From positions 1,284,754 to 1,348,753 of the forward strand of contig NW_018408820.1 in NCBI RefSeq assembly GCF_002113885.1: a stretch of 64,000 nt of DNA, read 5' to 3'. Every line of letters starts with the position of its first letter. Within the stretch, counting starts at the first letter, position 1. This stretch comes from Mizuhopecten yessoensis. Lineage: Eukaryota. Of this stretch, positions 6,001 through 33,000 are shown piece after piece. Position numbers: made by a program.

Positions 6001-9000
6001 AGCATTTACATACCTGGCGTGCATTGTCTAAAATGTATGTGTATTCAGTAATCTGATAGCTGTACCTAAGGTAGATATACCTGTGTTTTGGGTAATAAGA
6101 CATACCTGTACTGTAGGTAGATATACCTGTGTATTGGGTAATAAGACATACCTGTACTGTGGATAGATATACCTGTGTTTTTGGTAATAAGACATACATG
6201 TACTGTGGGTAGATATACCTGTGTATTGGGTAATAAGAAATACCTGTGTATTGGGTAATAAGCCATACCTGTACAGAATGTAGATATACCTGTGTATTGG
6301 GTTATAAGACATACCTGTACTGTAGATAGATATACCTGTGTATTGGGTAATAAGATATACCTGTACTGAAGGTAGATATACCTGTGTATTGGGTAATAAT
6401 ACATACCTGTATTGTAGGGAGAGATACCTGTGTATTGGGTAATAAGACATACCTGTACTGTAGGTAGATATATCTGTGTATTGGGTAATAAGACATACCT
6501 GTACCATGGGTAGATATACCTGTGTATTGGGTGATAAGACATACCTGTACTGTGGGTAGATATACCTGTGTATTTGGTAATGAGACATACCTGTACTATG
6601 GGTAGATATACCTGTGTATTGGGTGATAAGACATACCTGTACTGTGGGTAGATATACCAGTGTATTTGGTAATGAGACATACCTGTACTATGGGTAGATA
6701 TACCTGTATATTGGGTTATAATACATACCTGTACTATGGGTAGATATACCTGTGTATTGGGTAATAATACATACCTGTATTGTAGGGAGAGATACATGTG
6801 TATTGGGTAATAAGACATTCCTGTACTGTAGGTAGATATACCTGTGTATTTGGTAATAGGTTATTCCTGTACTGTGGGTAGATATACTTGTGTATTGGGT
6901 ATTAAGACGTACCTGTACTGTGGGTAGATATACCTGTGTATTGTGTAATGAGACATACCTGTACTGTGGGTAGATATACCTGTGTATTGTGTAATAAGAC
7001 ATACCTGTACTGTGGGTAGATATACCTGTGTACAGGGTAATAAGACATGCCTGTACTGTGAGTATAGATATACCTGTGTATTGGGTAATAAGACACAATT
7101 TTTCCAAAAGTTATTGCCCTTTGTTTATTTCAAAATTTGATTTTTGTCCGGCAATCTCCTCCTACATTTTTCAACAGATCTCTTTGAAACTTGGTATACA
7201 TTTGATAATAATCATGATATGAAGTTGTGTCTCCCTTAAAAGAATTTTGATTCAACGATTTTTGCAAACATTATTGCCCTTTATTCATTTCAGTATCTTA
7301 TATTTTGTCCAGAGATTTCATCCTACATTTTTTATAGCATGTCAGCTTACCACTCTTAGAATGATGCAGATCTTATTTCAATGTAAGAAAGTATATAACA
7401 CTATATGGCATTCGACAGGCGTATATTGTTCCACCCCACAGTACTCTTGTTCTCAATTTTACTGCATTGCAAGGTCACAGGAGATATGCATATCTAGTGA
7501 CTTTGAATGACAGGTCAGGGATACAGCCCATTAGGCCTCTTGTTTCTCTTGCAGGTGCGATTGTATTTATTGAGACTTAAATTAGGTTTGACATCCTAAT
7601 ATATTTTTATTGCGACGTTAGATAAGTTTGTTATCCCCCGCTTTCACCGAAACGGGGGATATTAATTTGGGTTTGTCCGTCTGTCTGTCACACTTCGTTT
7701 CCGTGCAATTACTGCAACAATGGTTAACCGATTTTTTCAAACTTGGTTACAGGGTTAAATGTCTTAAGGGCTCAGCCGAGTTTGATTACCACTTTCAGCA
7801 GACTTTATTTGGCAGAGTTATGGCCCCTTGAATAACGAAAAACGTCATTATCTGCAGTTTCCGCTTAATAACTCTAGCAAATATTAACCAAATTCCTTCA
7901 AACTTGATATCAATGTTTGTGTTCCTCTGTCTGTCTTTCTCGGACACTCTTTGGTTTTCTTTTGATAATTGCTGTAGATATTGTGCAGATATTTCAACCA
8001 AATTCTGCATGCCAACCGATGTGATTTGTGCATATGTACAGATAATTAATGAGGTATAAGGCTAGTAGCTTTGTTGGTAATTAAAAGCCCAACAAAGTAT
8101 GAGAACGAAAATGACCTTGACCTACTATCAAGGTCACAGGGGTCAAATATGTAAAACTTATCAAACAATATCATCTGAATATTCGAAATGCATAGAATCA
8201 TAATATTTGGCTGGTAAATGTCACAGATAGAGCCTGACAAAGTTTGCTATTGAAAATTACCTCAACCTACTTTAAAGGTCACAGGGGTCAAATATAGCAA
8301 ACACTGTACACAGCTTCTTTTGAAGAAGTGAAAGGCATGGAGTGGTGATATTTAACAAGTAGCTTCCTTGGATAGAGCCCAACAAAGTTTGCGAATGGAA
8401 ATGACCTTTACCTACTTTATCATATTGCTTTATCTTAATCTAATTTGATATAGAGTATCCTTGGCCCAACATGGTTCAATGTTGTAGAAACCATGCCTCC
8501 AACCCTAATAGGGACAGGAGAATGGGACCCAATAAGGTAAGGGTATTACTGAGATATGTACAGAGCCAATATTTGGAAATATTTGTAGTACAGTAAAATA
8601 TTTATTTAATATTTTGCTTTGACTGCTTAAATATCCAGGTGTACAATACAGGCCCTCTGTGCCTCTTGTTTTTAGCCCATTGTTATAGGCCTCACATAAG
8701 TAAGCATGTTTGTAATCTGTTTTTATAGGCTTGAGACACAGACAGAATACACTAAGGCCGCGGCTGTAGCTCTTTTTAACCTGAGAATGGGCAAGTCTAT
8801 ACAGATCCTGAGTAAGACTGCTACAAAACAAGGTAAGGATGTGATAACACGTTGCTACAAAACAAGGTAAGGATGTGATAACACGTCTCTATACAGATCC
8901 TGAGTAAGACTGCTACGAAACAAGGTAAGGATGTGATAACACGTCTCTATACAGATCCTAAGTAAGACTGCTACGAAACAAGGTAAGGATGTGATAACAC

Positions 9001-30000: not shown

Positions 30001-33000
30001 CCTAATTTACTCACTTTCGAGACGTAATTTCTTTTTCATTCTTTCTTTTCTTCAGAATCAGGTTACTACAGACAGCAGTGAAAACCTTCCGTCCTACACC
30101 CAATACTGTCGTTCGCTGTCCACGTCCTCCAGCATGAGCATGGAAACATCTCAGTGCACAAACTTCAATCAAAATGCCGCAAATGGCAATTACATGGGAG
30201 ACCAGGACGACATGCTCGGCCACAATACCGCCGTTTCCGACGTCCCCTTTGTGCTGAATCCTCAAATCCAAACCATGGTTGACATTACACATGGCAATGT
30301 GCCTTGCTTACATCAACATCCGATTAACCTGTCCAAGTATTCGTATGACTTCAGTCTGGAGAACTCTATGATTAGTGACACAGACAAGTTTTACTAGATG
30401 TACCTGTGATAGATCATTCTGACCGTAAATTACCATACCGGTAGTTTTTGATTGGCTGTTATAAAAAATCAATCAAACAAAGGTATACTGTAAAATCATA
30501 CATTTTCATGGGACATTTAATTTGATCATTTCGTGGATAATAAAAATCCACGAAATTAAATCCCTACGAAAAAATAAATTTGGTATGTTATAGATAGGGG
30601 AAAATTAGAAATCAGTGAAATATAATGTCCTTGAAACAGGTGAGTATATGAAAACCACGAAATTTTTACCCCACGAAAATAAATGATTTTACAGTACATA
30701 TGTTGGCCAGTTTCCCAAGCAAATGAATATACTTTTTAAAACATCAATATGTAGATTGATTGTTTCTCCAGTTAACCCTTTCACCACTGTAGACCATAAT
30801 GGACTCATCCATATCAATGCATGGTAGAATCTACTAAAGTTACATAGGGGTGAAAGGGTTAAATTAACAAATTCATTAATTGTTTATGATTATTTATAAC
30901 ATGCATAATATGGTACAACATACATTTTTGTTCGAAATCTGACTAAATAGTGTTGCCCAGTCAAATATTCGCCCATTTCCGATAAAGTCCATGTTAGTGT
31001 AAATATGCCCTTCACATGTAGTTACTATATACTGCATGTTGCTTGCTAACATTTGTTGTCATGATAGATTGGGGAGGGCAAAAAAAGGCGAAAGTAAAAC
31101 TGTGGTGAAAATTTCCTGGTTTATAAGTTGACAATGGTCACAGAAATCGTATATATATGTTCAGAACATTTGCAATACCTCTTCTGTGATGTGAAAGATA
31201 AATTTATTTTAATAATAATTAATAATAATTCGAGGTTCTTATATACCGCTTTATCACAATCTAGTTTGTAGGTCTTCTGAAAGTGGTTCATAAATTATTA
31301 TCCATGGTTATAGGGCCTTTGCAACCAGCGAATATCATTCTCAACACCCTGGGGAGCATACAACCAGTGCTTCCATTTCGGCACTCACACCTGGCATTGT
31401 ACAATTCTAGCACTACCCAACCACATACTCATTTACAGCTGAGTAGACTGGAACAAGCGGCGGAAGGTATCTTGCTCAAAGATACAACACAGTGCCGTGA
31501 CGTGAACTATGCATGCTACAAGCTGTGTCTGTGAAGGGGCGTTATTTTACCCACATACTATTTTATCATTAACATACACTGTACAGGATGTCTAATTGTT
31601 TTACAAGGTCTTTACTTTCATAGACTGGCTACCAGCCCCTTAGGTTATATGAAGAATTTCTCTGCTGCATTTTACTACTAGCTTATCTCCCCCTAGAATC
31701 AGACATCCAAGTGATCAAATTTTTTGAGTTAAACTTTTTTCTTAATAATTCAATATTCTAGAGACGGGGGCCAGTCTATTGCTTTCACAACAACGACTTT
31801 TTGGCAAAACATACACACCATGGTCAAATCAGCAAATATAGACAAAGAAAATATGCGTGTGTTGTGTGTATGAATGGTGTTATCACGTACTGAATATATT
31901 AGTTGCTGTTTGGTGTACTTGGTGATAGGTTTACATAAATGTCTGTGACACTTGTACCTATTTCCCTTTGTCTTCTCTGTTCATTGTATATAATAACATG
32001 CTTGAACTGACATAAAAGAAAGTTTAAACTAAAATGACATTTGCCAAAACAAAGATTTTCAACTGTAATTGGAAACACTCCAAAGAGAAACAAGGTTATA
32101 AAAAAAAAAGTGAAAAGTTGTGATGCAAAAGTTGATTTGCTAATATGACAATGTTAGTTTTATATCACATTGAGGTATACCTGGTACAACTACCTGTGTT
32201 TTATATCCCTACTTATAACCCTATATTTTATTTTTTATATTTTATTTTAAATTGATTTGTCCGAACAGGTTAATCTTCCAAAACTTTGATCTTGATAAAA
32301 GTTATCACTAATGGGCTACCTATATGGAGCAGGCCCAGCATATTGACTTTCTCCACTAGCCTCACTGTCACAAAACATTTCTATTTTAAGAATCTATATA
32401 TATATCATTTTAAGAAATATGCTTTCCTTATTGATAAATAAAAAAAGGTAATTATGTAAAAACTTTGATAAACTGTCCTTTTTTGCAAGAATTAACCACA
32501 ATAAATCGCCTTACACTACTTTGGTGTCCAATTAATACAATCAATACAATTTTTGAAAAATTTACAGATTTGCTTTACCGGGTAATCAGGTGTTATCAGC
32601 CTTTTGCCACTTGGAAAACATCCCAGGATTGTGTGTGCATGATGTGTATTCTGTTCTGTTTTGCAATGAGACTGTGCTTCCAATTTTTTAGTGCTAATTC
32701 GCTTGATTAAGTCAAATACTTCAAGCAAAAAACACTGACTCTGCAACACCCACCCAGACCATTTAATGGCGGTCTGTGTGGAAGGACAGAATTTTATACC
32801 ACTTTGCCAAATCTGCTCAAATTTATTCATTGAAATCTTTTCAATATTCACACTAAATATTTCTTACAATTTGAAAAGAAATGTGAAAATTCCCATAGAT
32901 AGTTCCGTTGAGGTGGTCAATATATAAAATATCTATAACATATCTGTTTAACAGTGTGGTTACAGTGACTGCTGATAATGAAGCCATTTGCTGAATTTTT

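What the first reader, a model, noticed from the sequence alone, without database searches (positions are those of the whole stretch)
8729..30397. MIOS(+)-RPA3(-)-UMAD1(+) microsynteny matches the human locus
The three genes reconstructed here have the same order and relative orientation as on human 7p21 (MIOS convergent with RPA3; RPA3 head-to-head with UMAD1, formerly RPA3-AS1/RPA3OS). If the host is a mollusc, the block has survived since the protostome-deuterostome split. It links mTORC1 nutrient sensing (GATOR2), ssDNA binding/replication and ESCRT-I, which hints at a shared regulatory constraint.
Basis: partly seen in the sequence, partly recalled or inferred. Interest (0 to 1): 0.65.

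Follow-up and report, generated by a model that had tools for sequence, protein, structure and literature searches.

The report
Scallop MIOS–RPA3–UMAD1-like gene neighbourhood
A scallop genome segment carries the end of MIOS, then RPA3 on the opposite strand, then a small UMA-domain (UMAD1-like) gene head-to-head with RPA3, the arrangement reported for mammals, so it is probably one more ordinary case of very old gene neighbours staying together.

Summary
The window is scallop DNA, not human. Its RPA3 and UMA-gene exons are 100% identical to named Mizuhopecten yessoensis proteins.

- **MIOS (+):** only the last 9 exons, 8729-17261, about residues 514-874 of 874.
- **RPA3 (-):** complete, 4 exons, 28036-23186.
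- **UMA-domain gene (+):** complete, 190 aa, 2 exons, 29417-30397.

All splice sites are GT-AG. MIOS and RPA3 converge, with 5,924 bp between their stop codons. RPA3 and the UMA gene diverge, with 1,380 bp between their ATGs. A CpG-rich patch and two TGACGTCA sites lie just upstream of RPA3.

MIOS and RPA3 identities are solid. UMAD1 orthology rests on the UMA motifs, the small size and look-alike clusters. No reciprocal best hit was obtained.

Deep conservation is plausible but was not surveyed, because no animal genome collection was available. Human gene orientations are recalled. Papers show only that the genes are neighbours in human and pig.

A three-way functional link is unsupported. 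A shared divergent promoter for RPA3 and the UMA gene is the best-supported mechanism. This is a new member of a known kind, conserved ancestral microsynteny, and of modest interest.

The parts
8729..8832 (+). MIOS exon, the first one inside the window (about residues 514-548; alpha-solenoid)
   Evidence: Pfam MIOS_a-sol E 2e-9. tblastn to P0007 at 91% identity. AG/GT edges.
9785..9954 (+). MIOS exon (alpha-solenoid)
   Evidence: Pfam MIOS_a-sol E 2.8e-23. 95% identity to P0007. Splice sites.
10959..11027 (+). MIOS exon
   Evidence: tblastn to P0007 at 79% identity. Weak Pfam MIOS_a-sol match, E 0.049. Splice sites.
11497..11569 (+). MIOS exon
   Evidence: tblastn to P0007 and P0008. Splice sites.
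11839..11977 (+). MIOS exon; a 35-bp minisatellite (11967-13485) starts at its 3' end and fills the next intron
   Evidence: tblastn at 91% identity. TRF array. Splice sites.
14356..14397 (+). MIOS exon
   Evidence: tblastn at 93% identity, E 5.7e-4. Splice sites.
15000..15174 (+). MIOS exon; the window's single N (15346) lies in the intron after it and was left as it is
   Evidence: tblastn at 92% identity. N located. Splice sites.
15448..15556 (+). MIOS exon (zinc-ribbon part)
   Evidence: Pfam zinc_ribbon_16 E 5e-6. tblastn at 95% identity.
17056..17261 (+). MIOS last coding exon with stop codon (RING-like zinc ribbon)
   Evidence: Pfam zinc_ribbon_16 E 9.3e-14 and zf-RING_16 E 1.1e-6. tblastn at 96% identity.
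17262..23185 (.). Convergent spacer between the MIOS and RPA3 stop codons (5,924 bp); mostly repeats, including the 20-bp array 18076-19317 and local duplications
   Evidence: No Pfam hit of E 0.01 or better in its frames of 48 aa or more; two weaker chance-level hits (Med2 E 0.036, 22786-22950; COG3_C E 0.05) were seen.
23186..23262 (-). RPA3 exon 4 with stop codon; a 100-bp tandem duplication (23014-23214) repeats its end in the 3' UTR
   Evidence: tblastn to P0001, 100% over residues 93-117, plus a secondary partial hit at 23136-23092. TRF.
23782..23893 (-). RPA3 exon 3
   Evidence: tblastn to P0001, residues 56-92 identical. Splice sites.
27250..27324 (-). RPA3 exon 2
   Evidence: tblastn to P0001, residues 31-55 identical. 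Splice sites.
27947..28036 (-). RPA3 exon 1, coding part, from the ATG at 28036
   Evidence: Pfam Rep_fac-A_3 E 6.5e-4, below the curated cut-off. Residues 1-30 identical to P0001.
28037..29416 (.). Divergent spacer between the RPA3 and UMA-gene ATGs (1,380 bp). It holds a CpG o/e peak of 1.47 at 28001-28500, TGACGTCA at 28202 and 28474, and an E2F-like TTTCGCGG at 28082. It is the presumed shared or adjacent promoter region.
   Evidence: No copies of it elsewhere in the window.
29417..29647 (+). UMA-domain (UMAD1-like) gene, coding exon 1 (77 codons)
   Evidence: 77 of 77 identical to P0003. GT donor at 29648. No Pfam hit on its own.
30056..30397 (+). UMA-domain (UMAD1-like) gene, coding exon 2 with stop; it carries the VPF and Y-x-F-x-x-E motifs of the UMA domain
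   Evidence: 113 of 113 identical to P0003. Pfam DUF2464/MVB12 C-terminal match, E 1.3e-3, below cut-off. Motif positions read against the residues named in PMC10445733.

Best explanation
The window is a piece of a pectinid scallop chromosome. Its coding exons are identical to Mizuhopecten yessoensis proteins. It holds three ordinary, intact single-copy housekeeping genes: the 3' 41% of MIOS (a GATOR2 subunit), RPA3 (the 14-kDa RPA subunit) and a small stand-alone UMA-domain gene, which is best read as the scallop counterpart of vertebrate UMAD1 (an MVB12-like ESCRT-I subunit).

The order is MIOS> <RPA3 UMA>, the same as reported or recalled for mammals. This is most likely an inherited bilaterian neighbourhood, that is, conserved ancestral microsynteny.

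The part with a plausible mechanism is the RPA3/UMA pair. The two genes are transcribed divergently from a spacer of at most 1.38 kb, which has a CpG-rich, CRE-bearing patch next to RPA3. A break between them would therefore cut through promoter sequence that one or both genes need. MIOS probably stays beside RPA3 passively: the distance is short, and scallop and vertebrate genomes rearrange slowly.

What is shown: the gene models, their identities, strands and distances, and the motif and CpG pattern.

What is inferred: orthology of the UMA gene with UMAD1, the ancestral age of the block, and the shared promoter.
For: - **Gene models and identities:**
- **RPA3:** the identical database protein P0001 matches Rep_fac-A_3 over the whole profile, E 6.6e-19.
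- **MIOS:** two MIOS-specific Pfam families matched, and 3 of 3 significant hits among 9 candidates were MIOS or mio proteins, two named MIOS and one named a mio zinc-ribbon protein.
- **UMA gene, motifs:** VPF and Y-x-F-x-x-E are present, the residues shown to be needed for ESCRT-I binding in human UMAD1 (passages of PMC10445733; sequence).
- **UMA gene, family:** 3 of 3 pectinid proteins match the C-terminal part of the MVB12 family, best E 5.7e-5. The database annotates them with PF28191, which names UBAP1-MVB12_assoc.
- **UMA gene, look-alikes:** the nearest named Atlas clusters are about 145-aa 'UMA domain-containing protein' clusters, score 0.93 with 214 shared features, and 9 of the ten best hits with a family share that family.
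- **Second scallop:** Pecten maximus RPA3 and the UMA gene have consecutive gene numbers, and all three proteins lie on a contig of the same length.
- **Mammals:** the three genes are listed as neighbours in human and pig.
- **Promoter anatomy:** CpG o/e is 1.47 at 28001-28500, against 0.69 window-wide. There are 2 TGACGTCA sites within 440 bp of the RPA3 ATG. The motif occurs 10 times in the window against 0.92 expected.
- **Known kind:** Irimia et al. 2012 report 595 conserved ancestral pairs, 54.8% of them 5'-5' in human, with short spacers and raised co-expression (passages).
Against: - **No reciprocal best hit for UMAD1.** phmmer with exon 2 found only 7 proteins at E of 0.001 or better among 1.84 billion, and 0 of their 7 clusters carries a name.
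- **Weak or empty searches for the UMA gene.** The Atlas search with exon 2 alone gave nothing useful, best score 0.76. PDB searches found no UMA protein. The local Pfam match is below the curated cut-off, 19.8 against 22 bits.
- **The literature does not extend UMAD1 to invertebrates.** The one functional paper says only that UMAD1 is conserved across vertebrates.
- **No lineage between scallops and mammals was examined.**
- **Human strand orientations come from recall.**
- **The promoter evidence is one-sided.** The CpG-rich patch hugs RPA3, while the 900 bp next to the UMA-gene ATG are CpG-poor, o/e 0.24-0.45. The two genes may therefore have separate promoters unless the UMA gene has an upstream non-coding exon.
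- **The E2F-like motif is not enriched:** 7 found against 5.06 expected.
- **TGACGTCA is frequent across the whole window**, so its presence here is weak evidence.
- **The block does not extend further.** The next recognisable genes downstream are a TRIM-like gene and a prolyl-hydroxylase-like gene. GLCCI1, the gene listed next to UMAD1 in human and pig, was not seen.
Confidence: 0.62

Rival explanations
1. The block is ancestral but neutral. The three genes are true orthologues and have simply not yet been separated, because pectinid and vertebrate genomes rearrange slowly and the spacers are short targets. No shared regulation is involved.
For: MIOS and RPA3 are tail-to-tail, with a 5.9-kb repeat-filled spacer and nothing that looks functional in it. 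The CpG-rich patch is next to RPA3 only. The three proteins work in unrelated pathways. Large surveys find hundreds of retained pairs, and not all of them are co-expressed.
Against: Among conserved pairs, 5'-5' pairs are strongly over-represented and keep their orientation best, and RPA3/UMA is such a pair with a 1.38-kb ATG-to-ATG spacer. The next genes on either side of the block are not the mammalian neighbours. So rearrangement has happened around the block but not inside it.
Confidence: 0.25
2. The small gene is not the UMAD1 orthologue. It is a lineage-specific UMA-domain gene, for example one derived from MVB12, that happens to sit next to RPA3. In that case only MIOS-RPA3 is shared with vertebrates.
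For: No named vertebrate UMAD1 was recovered. The only Pfam family matched locally is MVB12. The protein is 190 aa, against about 145 aa for the look-alike clusters. The paper says conserved across vertebrates.
Against: The match covers only the C-terminal part of the MVB12 profile (positions 128-253 of 253), and no other domain is found. So the protein has the stand-alone UMA architecture. For a UMA-only gene to land head-to-head with RPA3 independently in two phyla would be an extreme coincidence.
Confidence: 0.1
3. Annotation or assembly artefact. The apparent adjacency would result from a mis-join, or the small open frames would not be real genes.
For: The window contains one N and many minisatellites that complicate assembly.
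Against: The N is a single base inside a MIOS intron. All 15 coding exons have canonical splice sites and consistent phases. The proteins are conserved at 70-96% identity in other pectinids. Pecten maximus has the same genes on one contig.
Confidence: 0.03

Closest known systems
Conserved ancestral microsyntenic pairs (CAMPs) of Irimia et al. 2012 (PMC3514665), and the multi-species microsyntenic blocks of Robert et al. 2022 (PMC8851819)
   Same: Unrelated, non-paralogous neighbours are apparently kept between a mollusc and mammals. One pair is 5'-5' with a short spacer, the class that is most enriched and most stable in orientation.
   Different: Neither RPA3 nor MIOS occurs in the main text of either paper: 0 occurrences each. 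The gene lists are in supplements that I could not open, so the block may or may not already be catalogued. Robert et al. did include M. yessoensis. The criterion of presence in four or more major lineages was not tested here.
Human and pig MIOS-RPA3-UMAD1 locus (7p21 in human, chromosome 9 in pig)
   Same: The same three genes are listed as neighbours. RPA3 and UMAD1 are so close in human that one SNP is intronic to both.
   Different: In the scallop the whole RPA3 gene spans 4.9 kb and the coding parts of the two genes do not overlap. The neighbours beyond the block differ, with no sign of GLCCI1 downstream. Human strands are recalled and were not checked. No human sequence was fetched or compared.
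Classical bidirectional-promoter pairs such as HSPE1-HSPD1 (cited in PMC3514665)
   Same: Divergent orientation, a short spacer and a CpG-rich patch with palindromic CRE sites.
   Different: Transcription start sites are unknown here. The ATG-to-ATG distance of 1,380 bp exceeds the usual limit of under 1 kb unless 5' UTRs fill it. The CpG signal is one-sided. The two products do not act in one complex.
Vertebrate UMAD1, an MVB12-like ESCRT-I subunit (PMC10445733)
   Same: A short protein whose only recognisable module is a C-terminal UMA domain. It has the VPF motif and the Y, F and E positions that were mutated in the paper.
   Different: It is 190 aa. The spacer between VPF and the Y-x-F-x-x-E motif is 2 residues shorter than the numbering in the paper implies: 32 residues against 34, by my count. 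Sequence similarity outside the motifs is too low for phmmer to link it to any named protein.

Membership tests
MIOS (GATOR2 subunit) | MIOS-type alpha-solenoid | tested here: met
   PF21719 matched by three consecutive + strand frames, best E 2.8e-23, above the cut-off of 27 bits.
MIOS (GATOR2 subunit) | C-terminal zinc-ribbon/RING-like domain | tested here: met
   PF17034 E 9.3e-14 and PF17120 E 1.1e-6 in the last exon. PF17034 E 5e-6 in the exon before it.
MIOS (GATOR2 subunit) | N-terminal WD40 propeller | not testable with these tools
   It lies outside the window. No hit for residues 1-513 of P0007, P0008 or P0009; best E 0.54.
MIOS (GATOR2 subunit) | Closest relatives are MIOS proteins | tested here: met
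   3 of 3 significant hits among 9 candidates were MIOS or mio proteins: two named MIOS and one a 'WD repeat protein mio zinc-ribbon' protein. Exon identities are 79-96%.
RPA3 / RPA14 (Rep_fac-A_3) | Full-length match to the RPA3 OB-fold family | tested here: met
   P0001, identical to the four exons, matches PF08661 positions 1-105 of 105, E 6.6e-19. Exon by exon, exon 1 gives E 6.5e-4, below the cut-off, and exons 2-4 give no hit on their own.
RPA3 / RPA14 (Rep_fac-A_3) | Small protein of about 14 kDa with no other domain | tested here: met
   117 codons in 4 exons. The only other Pfam row is a weak DUF5818 match, E 0.0037.
UMAD1 (stand-alone UMA-domain ESCRT-I subunit) | UMA domain with a VPF motif and the downstream Y, F and E residues needed for ESCRT-I binding | tested here: met
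   The motifs are present in exon 2 (sequence; residues named in PMC10445733) and are invariant in 3 of 3 pectinids.
UMAD1 (stand-alone UMA-domain ESCRT-I subunit) | Profile match to a UMA family | tested here: inconclusive
   Local Pfam gives the MVB12 C-terminal part at E 6.5e-4, 19.8 bits, below the cut-off of 22. 3 of 3 pectinids match, best E 5.7e-5. The database's own annotation gives PF28191 UBAP1-MVB12_assoc, a model that is not in the local library.
UMAD1 (stand-alone UMA-domain ESCRT-I subunit) | No MABP domain (as in MVB12) and no UBA/SOUBA domain (as in UBAP1) | tested here: met
   No other Pfam family at E of 0.05 or better in 3 of 3 pectinid proteins. The MVB12 profile is matched only from position 128 onward.
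UMAD1 (stand-alone UMA-domain ESCRT-I subunit) | Reciprocal best hit or a tree grouping with vertebrate UMAD1 | tested here: inconclusive
   7 hits at E of 0.001 or better, and 0 of their 7 clusters is named. No vertebrate sequence was available to compare.
UMAD1 (stand-alone UMA-domain ESCRT-I subunit) | Binds TSG101/VPS37 in ESCRT-I | not tested
   No partner sequences were fetched and no complex job was run.
Conserved ancestral microsyntenic block | Adjacency of orthologues in several major animal lineages (four or more in Irimia et al.) | not testable with these tools
   No animal genome collection was available.
Conserved ancestral microsyntenic block | Genes are not paralogues | tested here: met
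   They belong to three unrelated Pfam families.
Bidirectional-promoter gene pair | Divergent orientation with a short spacer | tested here: met
   RPA3 ATG at 28036 (-) and UMA-gene ATG at 29417 (+), with 1,380 bp between them.
Bidirectional-promoter gene pair | Transcription start sites less than about 1 kb apart and co-expression | not testable with these tools
   No transcript data. CpG o/e is 1.47 next to RPA3 but 0.24-0.45 next to the UMA-gene ATG.

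The most novel reading that the evidence does not exclude
RPA3 and the UMA-domain gene would form a divergent transcription unit that has been held together since before the protostome-deuterostome split. One cell-cycle-responsive promoter region would supply two proteins needed at the end of division. RPA coats the ultrafine DNA bridges that later acquire ESCRT-III (PMC13468122, passages). UMAD1 brings ESCRT-I to the abscission site (PMC10445733).

On this reading UMAD1 is not a vertebrate novelty but an old bilaterian ESCRT-I subunit, and its position next to RPA3 is the best marker of its orthology.
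Probability: 0.15. Interest if true: 0.55.

Novelty: new member of a known kind. Interest (0 to 1): 0.3.

Why it matters
If the block proves to be shared across phyla, it has three uses.

- It adds one clean three-gene example, including a 5'-5' pair, to the catalogue of ancient animal microsynteny.
- It gives position-based evidence that UMAD1, so far described as conserved across vertebrates, has invertebrate orthologues whose sequence is too diverged for ordinary searches.
- It offers a compact 1.4-kb spacer in which to test whether a replication gene and an abscission gene share promoter elements.

It does not change how any of the three proteins is understood, and it gives no support for a functional link with mTORC1 sensing.

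Tried and rejected
**Searches for UMAD1 relatives**
- phmmer of UMA exon 2 against 1.84 billion representatives gave 7 hits, all from unnamed records. I did not use them further, because their origin is unknown.
- The Atlas search with exon 2 alone gave a best score of 0.76, with unrelated families.
- The PDB search with exon 2 gave 0 hits. With a 3-sequence pectinid profile it gave 2 irrelevant hits, E 0.046 and 0.84.
- UMA exon 1 and RPA3 exons 2-4 alone gave no Pfam hit.

**Searches for a longer syntenic block**
- Pfam scans of 93 frames of 62 aa or more, and of 140 of the 172 frames of 41-61 aa downstream of 30.4 kb, found only a TRIM-like gene and a 2OG-oxygenase gene. Nothing resembled the mammalian neighbours.

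**Non-coding RNA that might explain the linkage**
- Rfam gave 0 matches at gathering scores.

**E2F site as a cell-cycle signal**
- One TTTCGCGG lies 46 bp upstream of the RPA3 ATG, but the motif is not enriched: 7 found against 5.06 expected. The consensus is recalled. I treat this as a lead only.

**Literature**
- 'microsynteny' with 'RPA3' returned 1 paper, on sorghum.
- 'MIOS', 'RPA3' and 'synten' returned 1 paper, unrelated.
- 'RPA3OS' returned 0 papers.
- 'RPA3-AS1' returned 6 human studies, seen as a listing only.
- 'MIOS', 'RPA3' and 'UMAD1' returned 5 papers, 4 listed, all mammalian association studies.

**Not attempted**
- The complex-prediction job was not used, because the report claims no binding between these gene products.
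All searches with window sequence were exon by exon.

Full report
**What the window is**

The window is AT-rich, about 38% G+C, with a single N at 15346. It is full of intronic minisatellites. Its coding exons are identical to named Mizuhopecten yessoensis proteins and 70-96% identical to those of other pectinids. I therefore take it for scallop DNA, not human. No human sequence was fetched or compared. The N was left as it is.

**How the searches were run**

All searches with window sequence were made exon by exon or frame by frame. I did not build or search a joined spliced model. Where a full-length comparison is quoted, it used database proteins returned by the searches.

*MIOS.* Pfam was run on 150 stop-to-stop frames of the first 31 kb: 148 of the 156 frames of 48 aa or more listed, plus two added by hand. 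It gave these + strand matches:
- MIOS_a-sol at 8700-8867, 9772-10014 and, weakly, 10863-11108
- zinc_ribbon_16 at 15379-15560 and 17043-17258

A search with one MIOS exon returned 3 significant proteins among 9 candidates, all MIOS or mio proteins of molluscs: two named MIOS and one named a mio zinc-ribbon protein. Local tblastn with them placed nine exons covering residues 514-874 of the 874-aa Ylistrum balloti protein.

*RPA3.* Pfam gave Rep_fac-A_3 on the - strand at 27926-28063. The frame holding RPA3 exon 1 returned 2 proteins among 9 candidates, from M. yessoensis (117 aa) and Pecten maximus (114 aa). tblastn placed four - strand exons whose coding parts are identical to the M. yessoensis protein. 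That protein matches the whole Rep_fac-A_3 profile, E 6.6e-19.

*UMA-domain gene.* Pfam gave the C-terminal part of the MVB12 family (DUF2464) at 29963-30394 on the + strand. Exon 2 returned 4 proteins among 4 candidates, all pectinid. The M. yessoensis one is 190 aa and 100% identical. Exon 1 is 77 of 77 identical.

*Gene structure.* Every exon edge is AG/GT, and the phases add up across all junctions.

8729 is the first base of the first MIOS exon in the window, and 30397 is the last base of the UMA-gene stop codon.

**One correction: MIOS is incomplete**

Residues 1-513 have no match anywhere in the window; the best E-value was 0.54. The preceding intron is therefore longer than 8.7 kb, or the gene starts beyond the window edge.

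**Anatomy of the block**

- MIOS and RPA3 converge, with 5,924 bp between their stop codons. This spacer is mostly repeats and holds no Pfam-recognisable frame.
- RPA3 spans 4.9 kb.
- Its ATG at 28036 and the UMA-gene ATG at 29417 diverge, with 1,380 bp between them.
- The 500 bp just upstream of the RPA3 ATG have a CpG o/e of 1.47, one of the highest values in the window, against 0.69 overall.
- That stretch holds two perfect TGACGTCA palindromes, at 28202 and 28474. The motif occurs 10 times in the window against 0.92 expected.
- The 900 bp next to the UMA-gene ATG are CpG-poor, o/e 0.24-0.45.
- An AG lies directly before the UMA-gene ATG. An upstream non-coding exon nearer to RPA3 is therefore possible but not shown.
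- An E2F-like TTTCGCGG sits 46 bp upstream of the RPA3 ATG. The motif class is not enriched, 7 found against 5.06 expected, and the consensus is recalled.
- The spacer has no other copy in the window.
- Rfam finds nothing in the window.

**Is the small gene UMAD1?**

Evidence for:
- It carries the VPF motif and the Y-x-F-x-x-E pattern. These correspond to V89-P90-F91, Y125, F127 and E130, the residues mutated in the ESCRT-I binding tests on human UMAD1; the VPF mutant abolished binding (passages of PMC10445733).
- These positions are invariant in 3 of 3 pectinid proteins.
- All 3 match only the C-terminal part of the MVB12 profile and no other Pfam family.
- The database annotates them with PF28191, which names UBAP1-MVB12_assoc.
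- With the Pecten maximus protein as query, the Atlas's nearest named clusters are about 145-aa 'UMA domain-containing protein' sets, mostly from arthropods. The top score is 0.93 with 214 shared features, and 9 of the ten best hits with a family share that family.

Evidence against:
- phmmer with exon 2 found only 7 proteins at E of 0.001 or better among 1.84 billion representatives. None of their 7 clusters has a name, and I did not use them.
- The Atlas search with exon 2 alone was uninformative.
- The PDB searches were uninformative.
- The local Pfam score is below the curated cut-off.

The architecture says 'stand-alone UMA protein like UMAD1'. Orthology in the strict sense remains inferred. 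Using the position next to RPA3 as evidence for it would be circular for the synteny claim.

**Comparison with mammals**

- A human association table lists COL28A1, MIOS, RPA3, UMAD1, GLCCI1 and ICA1 in one chromosome 7 haplotype region (one passage of PMC5958065).
- A pig study names MIOS, RPA3, UMAD1 and GLCCI1 together on chromosome 9 (passages of PMC10500877).
- A human study places one SNP in introns of both RPA3 and UMAD1 at 7p21 (passages of PMC7509520).
- The strands (MIOS +, RPA3 -, UMAD1 +) are my recollection; no call checked them.
- In the scallop the block does not extend further. Downstream come 10 kb without recognisable genes, then a RING/B-box/NHL gene at 41097-43394 (-), then a 2OG-oxygenase gene at 51.3-56.5 kb (+). 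Upstream, inside or before the MIOS intron, lies a B-box/NHL frame.

**How old is the block, and is it constrained?**

- I could not survey other phyla, because no animal genome collection was available.
- The only extra data point is Pecten maximus. There the RPA3 and UMA genes have consecutive gene numbers, and all three proteins lie on a contig of the same length.
- Chance adjacency of three given genes is negligible by my estimate. If orthology holds, inheritance from the bilaterian ancestor is the natural reading.
- That is a known phenomenon. Irimia et al. 2012 report 595 conserved non-paralogous pairs, 54.8% of them 5'-5' in human, with short spacers and raised co-expression (passages).
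- Robert et al. 2022 catalogued blocks of three or more genes in 49 genomes, including M. yessoensis (passages).
- Neither main text mentions RPA3 or MIOS. Their gene lists are in supplements that I could not see.
- My literature searches found no paper that discusses this block outside mammals.

**Mechanism**

The RPA3/UMA pair has the anatomy of a pair held together by promoter sharing or promoter interleaving. I rate this as the most likely constraint, at about even odds.

MIOS-RPA3 is tail-to-tail across a repeat-filled spacer and shows no sign of shared function. I regard it as a passive passenger.

A bolder reading couples RPA-coated DNA bridges with ESCRT-mediated abscission through one cell-cycle promoter. 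It can be motivated from PMC13468122 (passages) and PMC10445733, but it is speculation.

**Verdict**

This is an ordinary, well-formed example of a known kind of conservation. It has a small added value: it points to invertebrate UMAD1-like genes.

Noticed in passing
window 3798-5462 (-): A B-box (E 1.4e-10) plus NHL-repeat open frame, TRIM-like and without a RING. It is interrupted by one in-frame stop codon at 4641-4643. It lies upstream of the first MIOS exon in the window, so it is probably nested in a MIOS intron on the opposite strand. It may be a pseudogene.
   Followed up: partly
window 41097-43394 (-): An uninterrupted 766-codon frame with RING, two B-box-type zinc fingers and NHL/SGL repeats. 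It is an intact single-exon TRIM-like gene and a relative of the broken one at 3.8-5.5 kb.
   Followed up: partly
window 55110-55685 (+): An exon of a 2OG-Fe(II) oxygenase gene, which looks like a prolyl hydroxylase (Pfam E 4.3e-6). It ends in a 57-bp minisatellite of 8.4 copies. Each unit repeats the last 34 bases of the exon together with a GTAAGT-type donor, so the gene offers about eight near-identical donor sites in a row.
   Followed up: partly
window 51136-52204 (+): A 286-codon frame with a likely signal-anchor segment and no Pfam match. It is probably the first exon of the oxygenase gene. It is preceded by three TGACGTCA sites inside a 22-bp tandem repeat at 51136-51196.
   Followed up: no
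window 23014-23214: A 100-bp tandem duplication (2 copies, 92% alike) spans the end of the RPA3 coding sequence. It leaves a second, partial copy of the last codons in the 3' UTR (secondary tblastn hit at 23136-23092).
   Followed up: partly
window 25501-26808: A second CpG-rich patch (o/e 1.45-1.53), with a TGACGTCA at 25586, lies inside RPA3 intron 2. It is followed by a 146-bp tandem repeat at 26463-26808. No Pfam-recognisable frame and no copy elsewhere in the window. It could be an internal promoter or an old element.
   Followed up: no
window 16575-16660, 23516-23601, 30774-30859: Three copies of an interspersed repeat of about 86 bp (88-90% alike). They lie in the last MIOS intron, in RPA3 intron 3 and just downstream of the UMA gene. 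A second repeat pair is at 17612-17791 and 20359-20535.
   Followed up: no
window 44785-48273: A 3.5-kb satellite with a 65/130-bp unit (27 to 41 copies, depending on the period) lies between the TRIM-like gene and the oxygenase gene.
   Followed up: no
window 61916-61998 (-): ARAGORN calls an 83-base tRNA-Val (CAC), but Rfam finds no tRNA at gathering score. It may be a tRNA-derived repeat or a false call.
   Followed up: no
whole window: The palindrome TGACGTCA occurs 10 times against 0.92 expected from shuffles, mostly near CpG-rich patches. This suggests that it is a common promoter element in this genome.
   Followed up: partly
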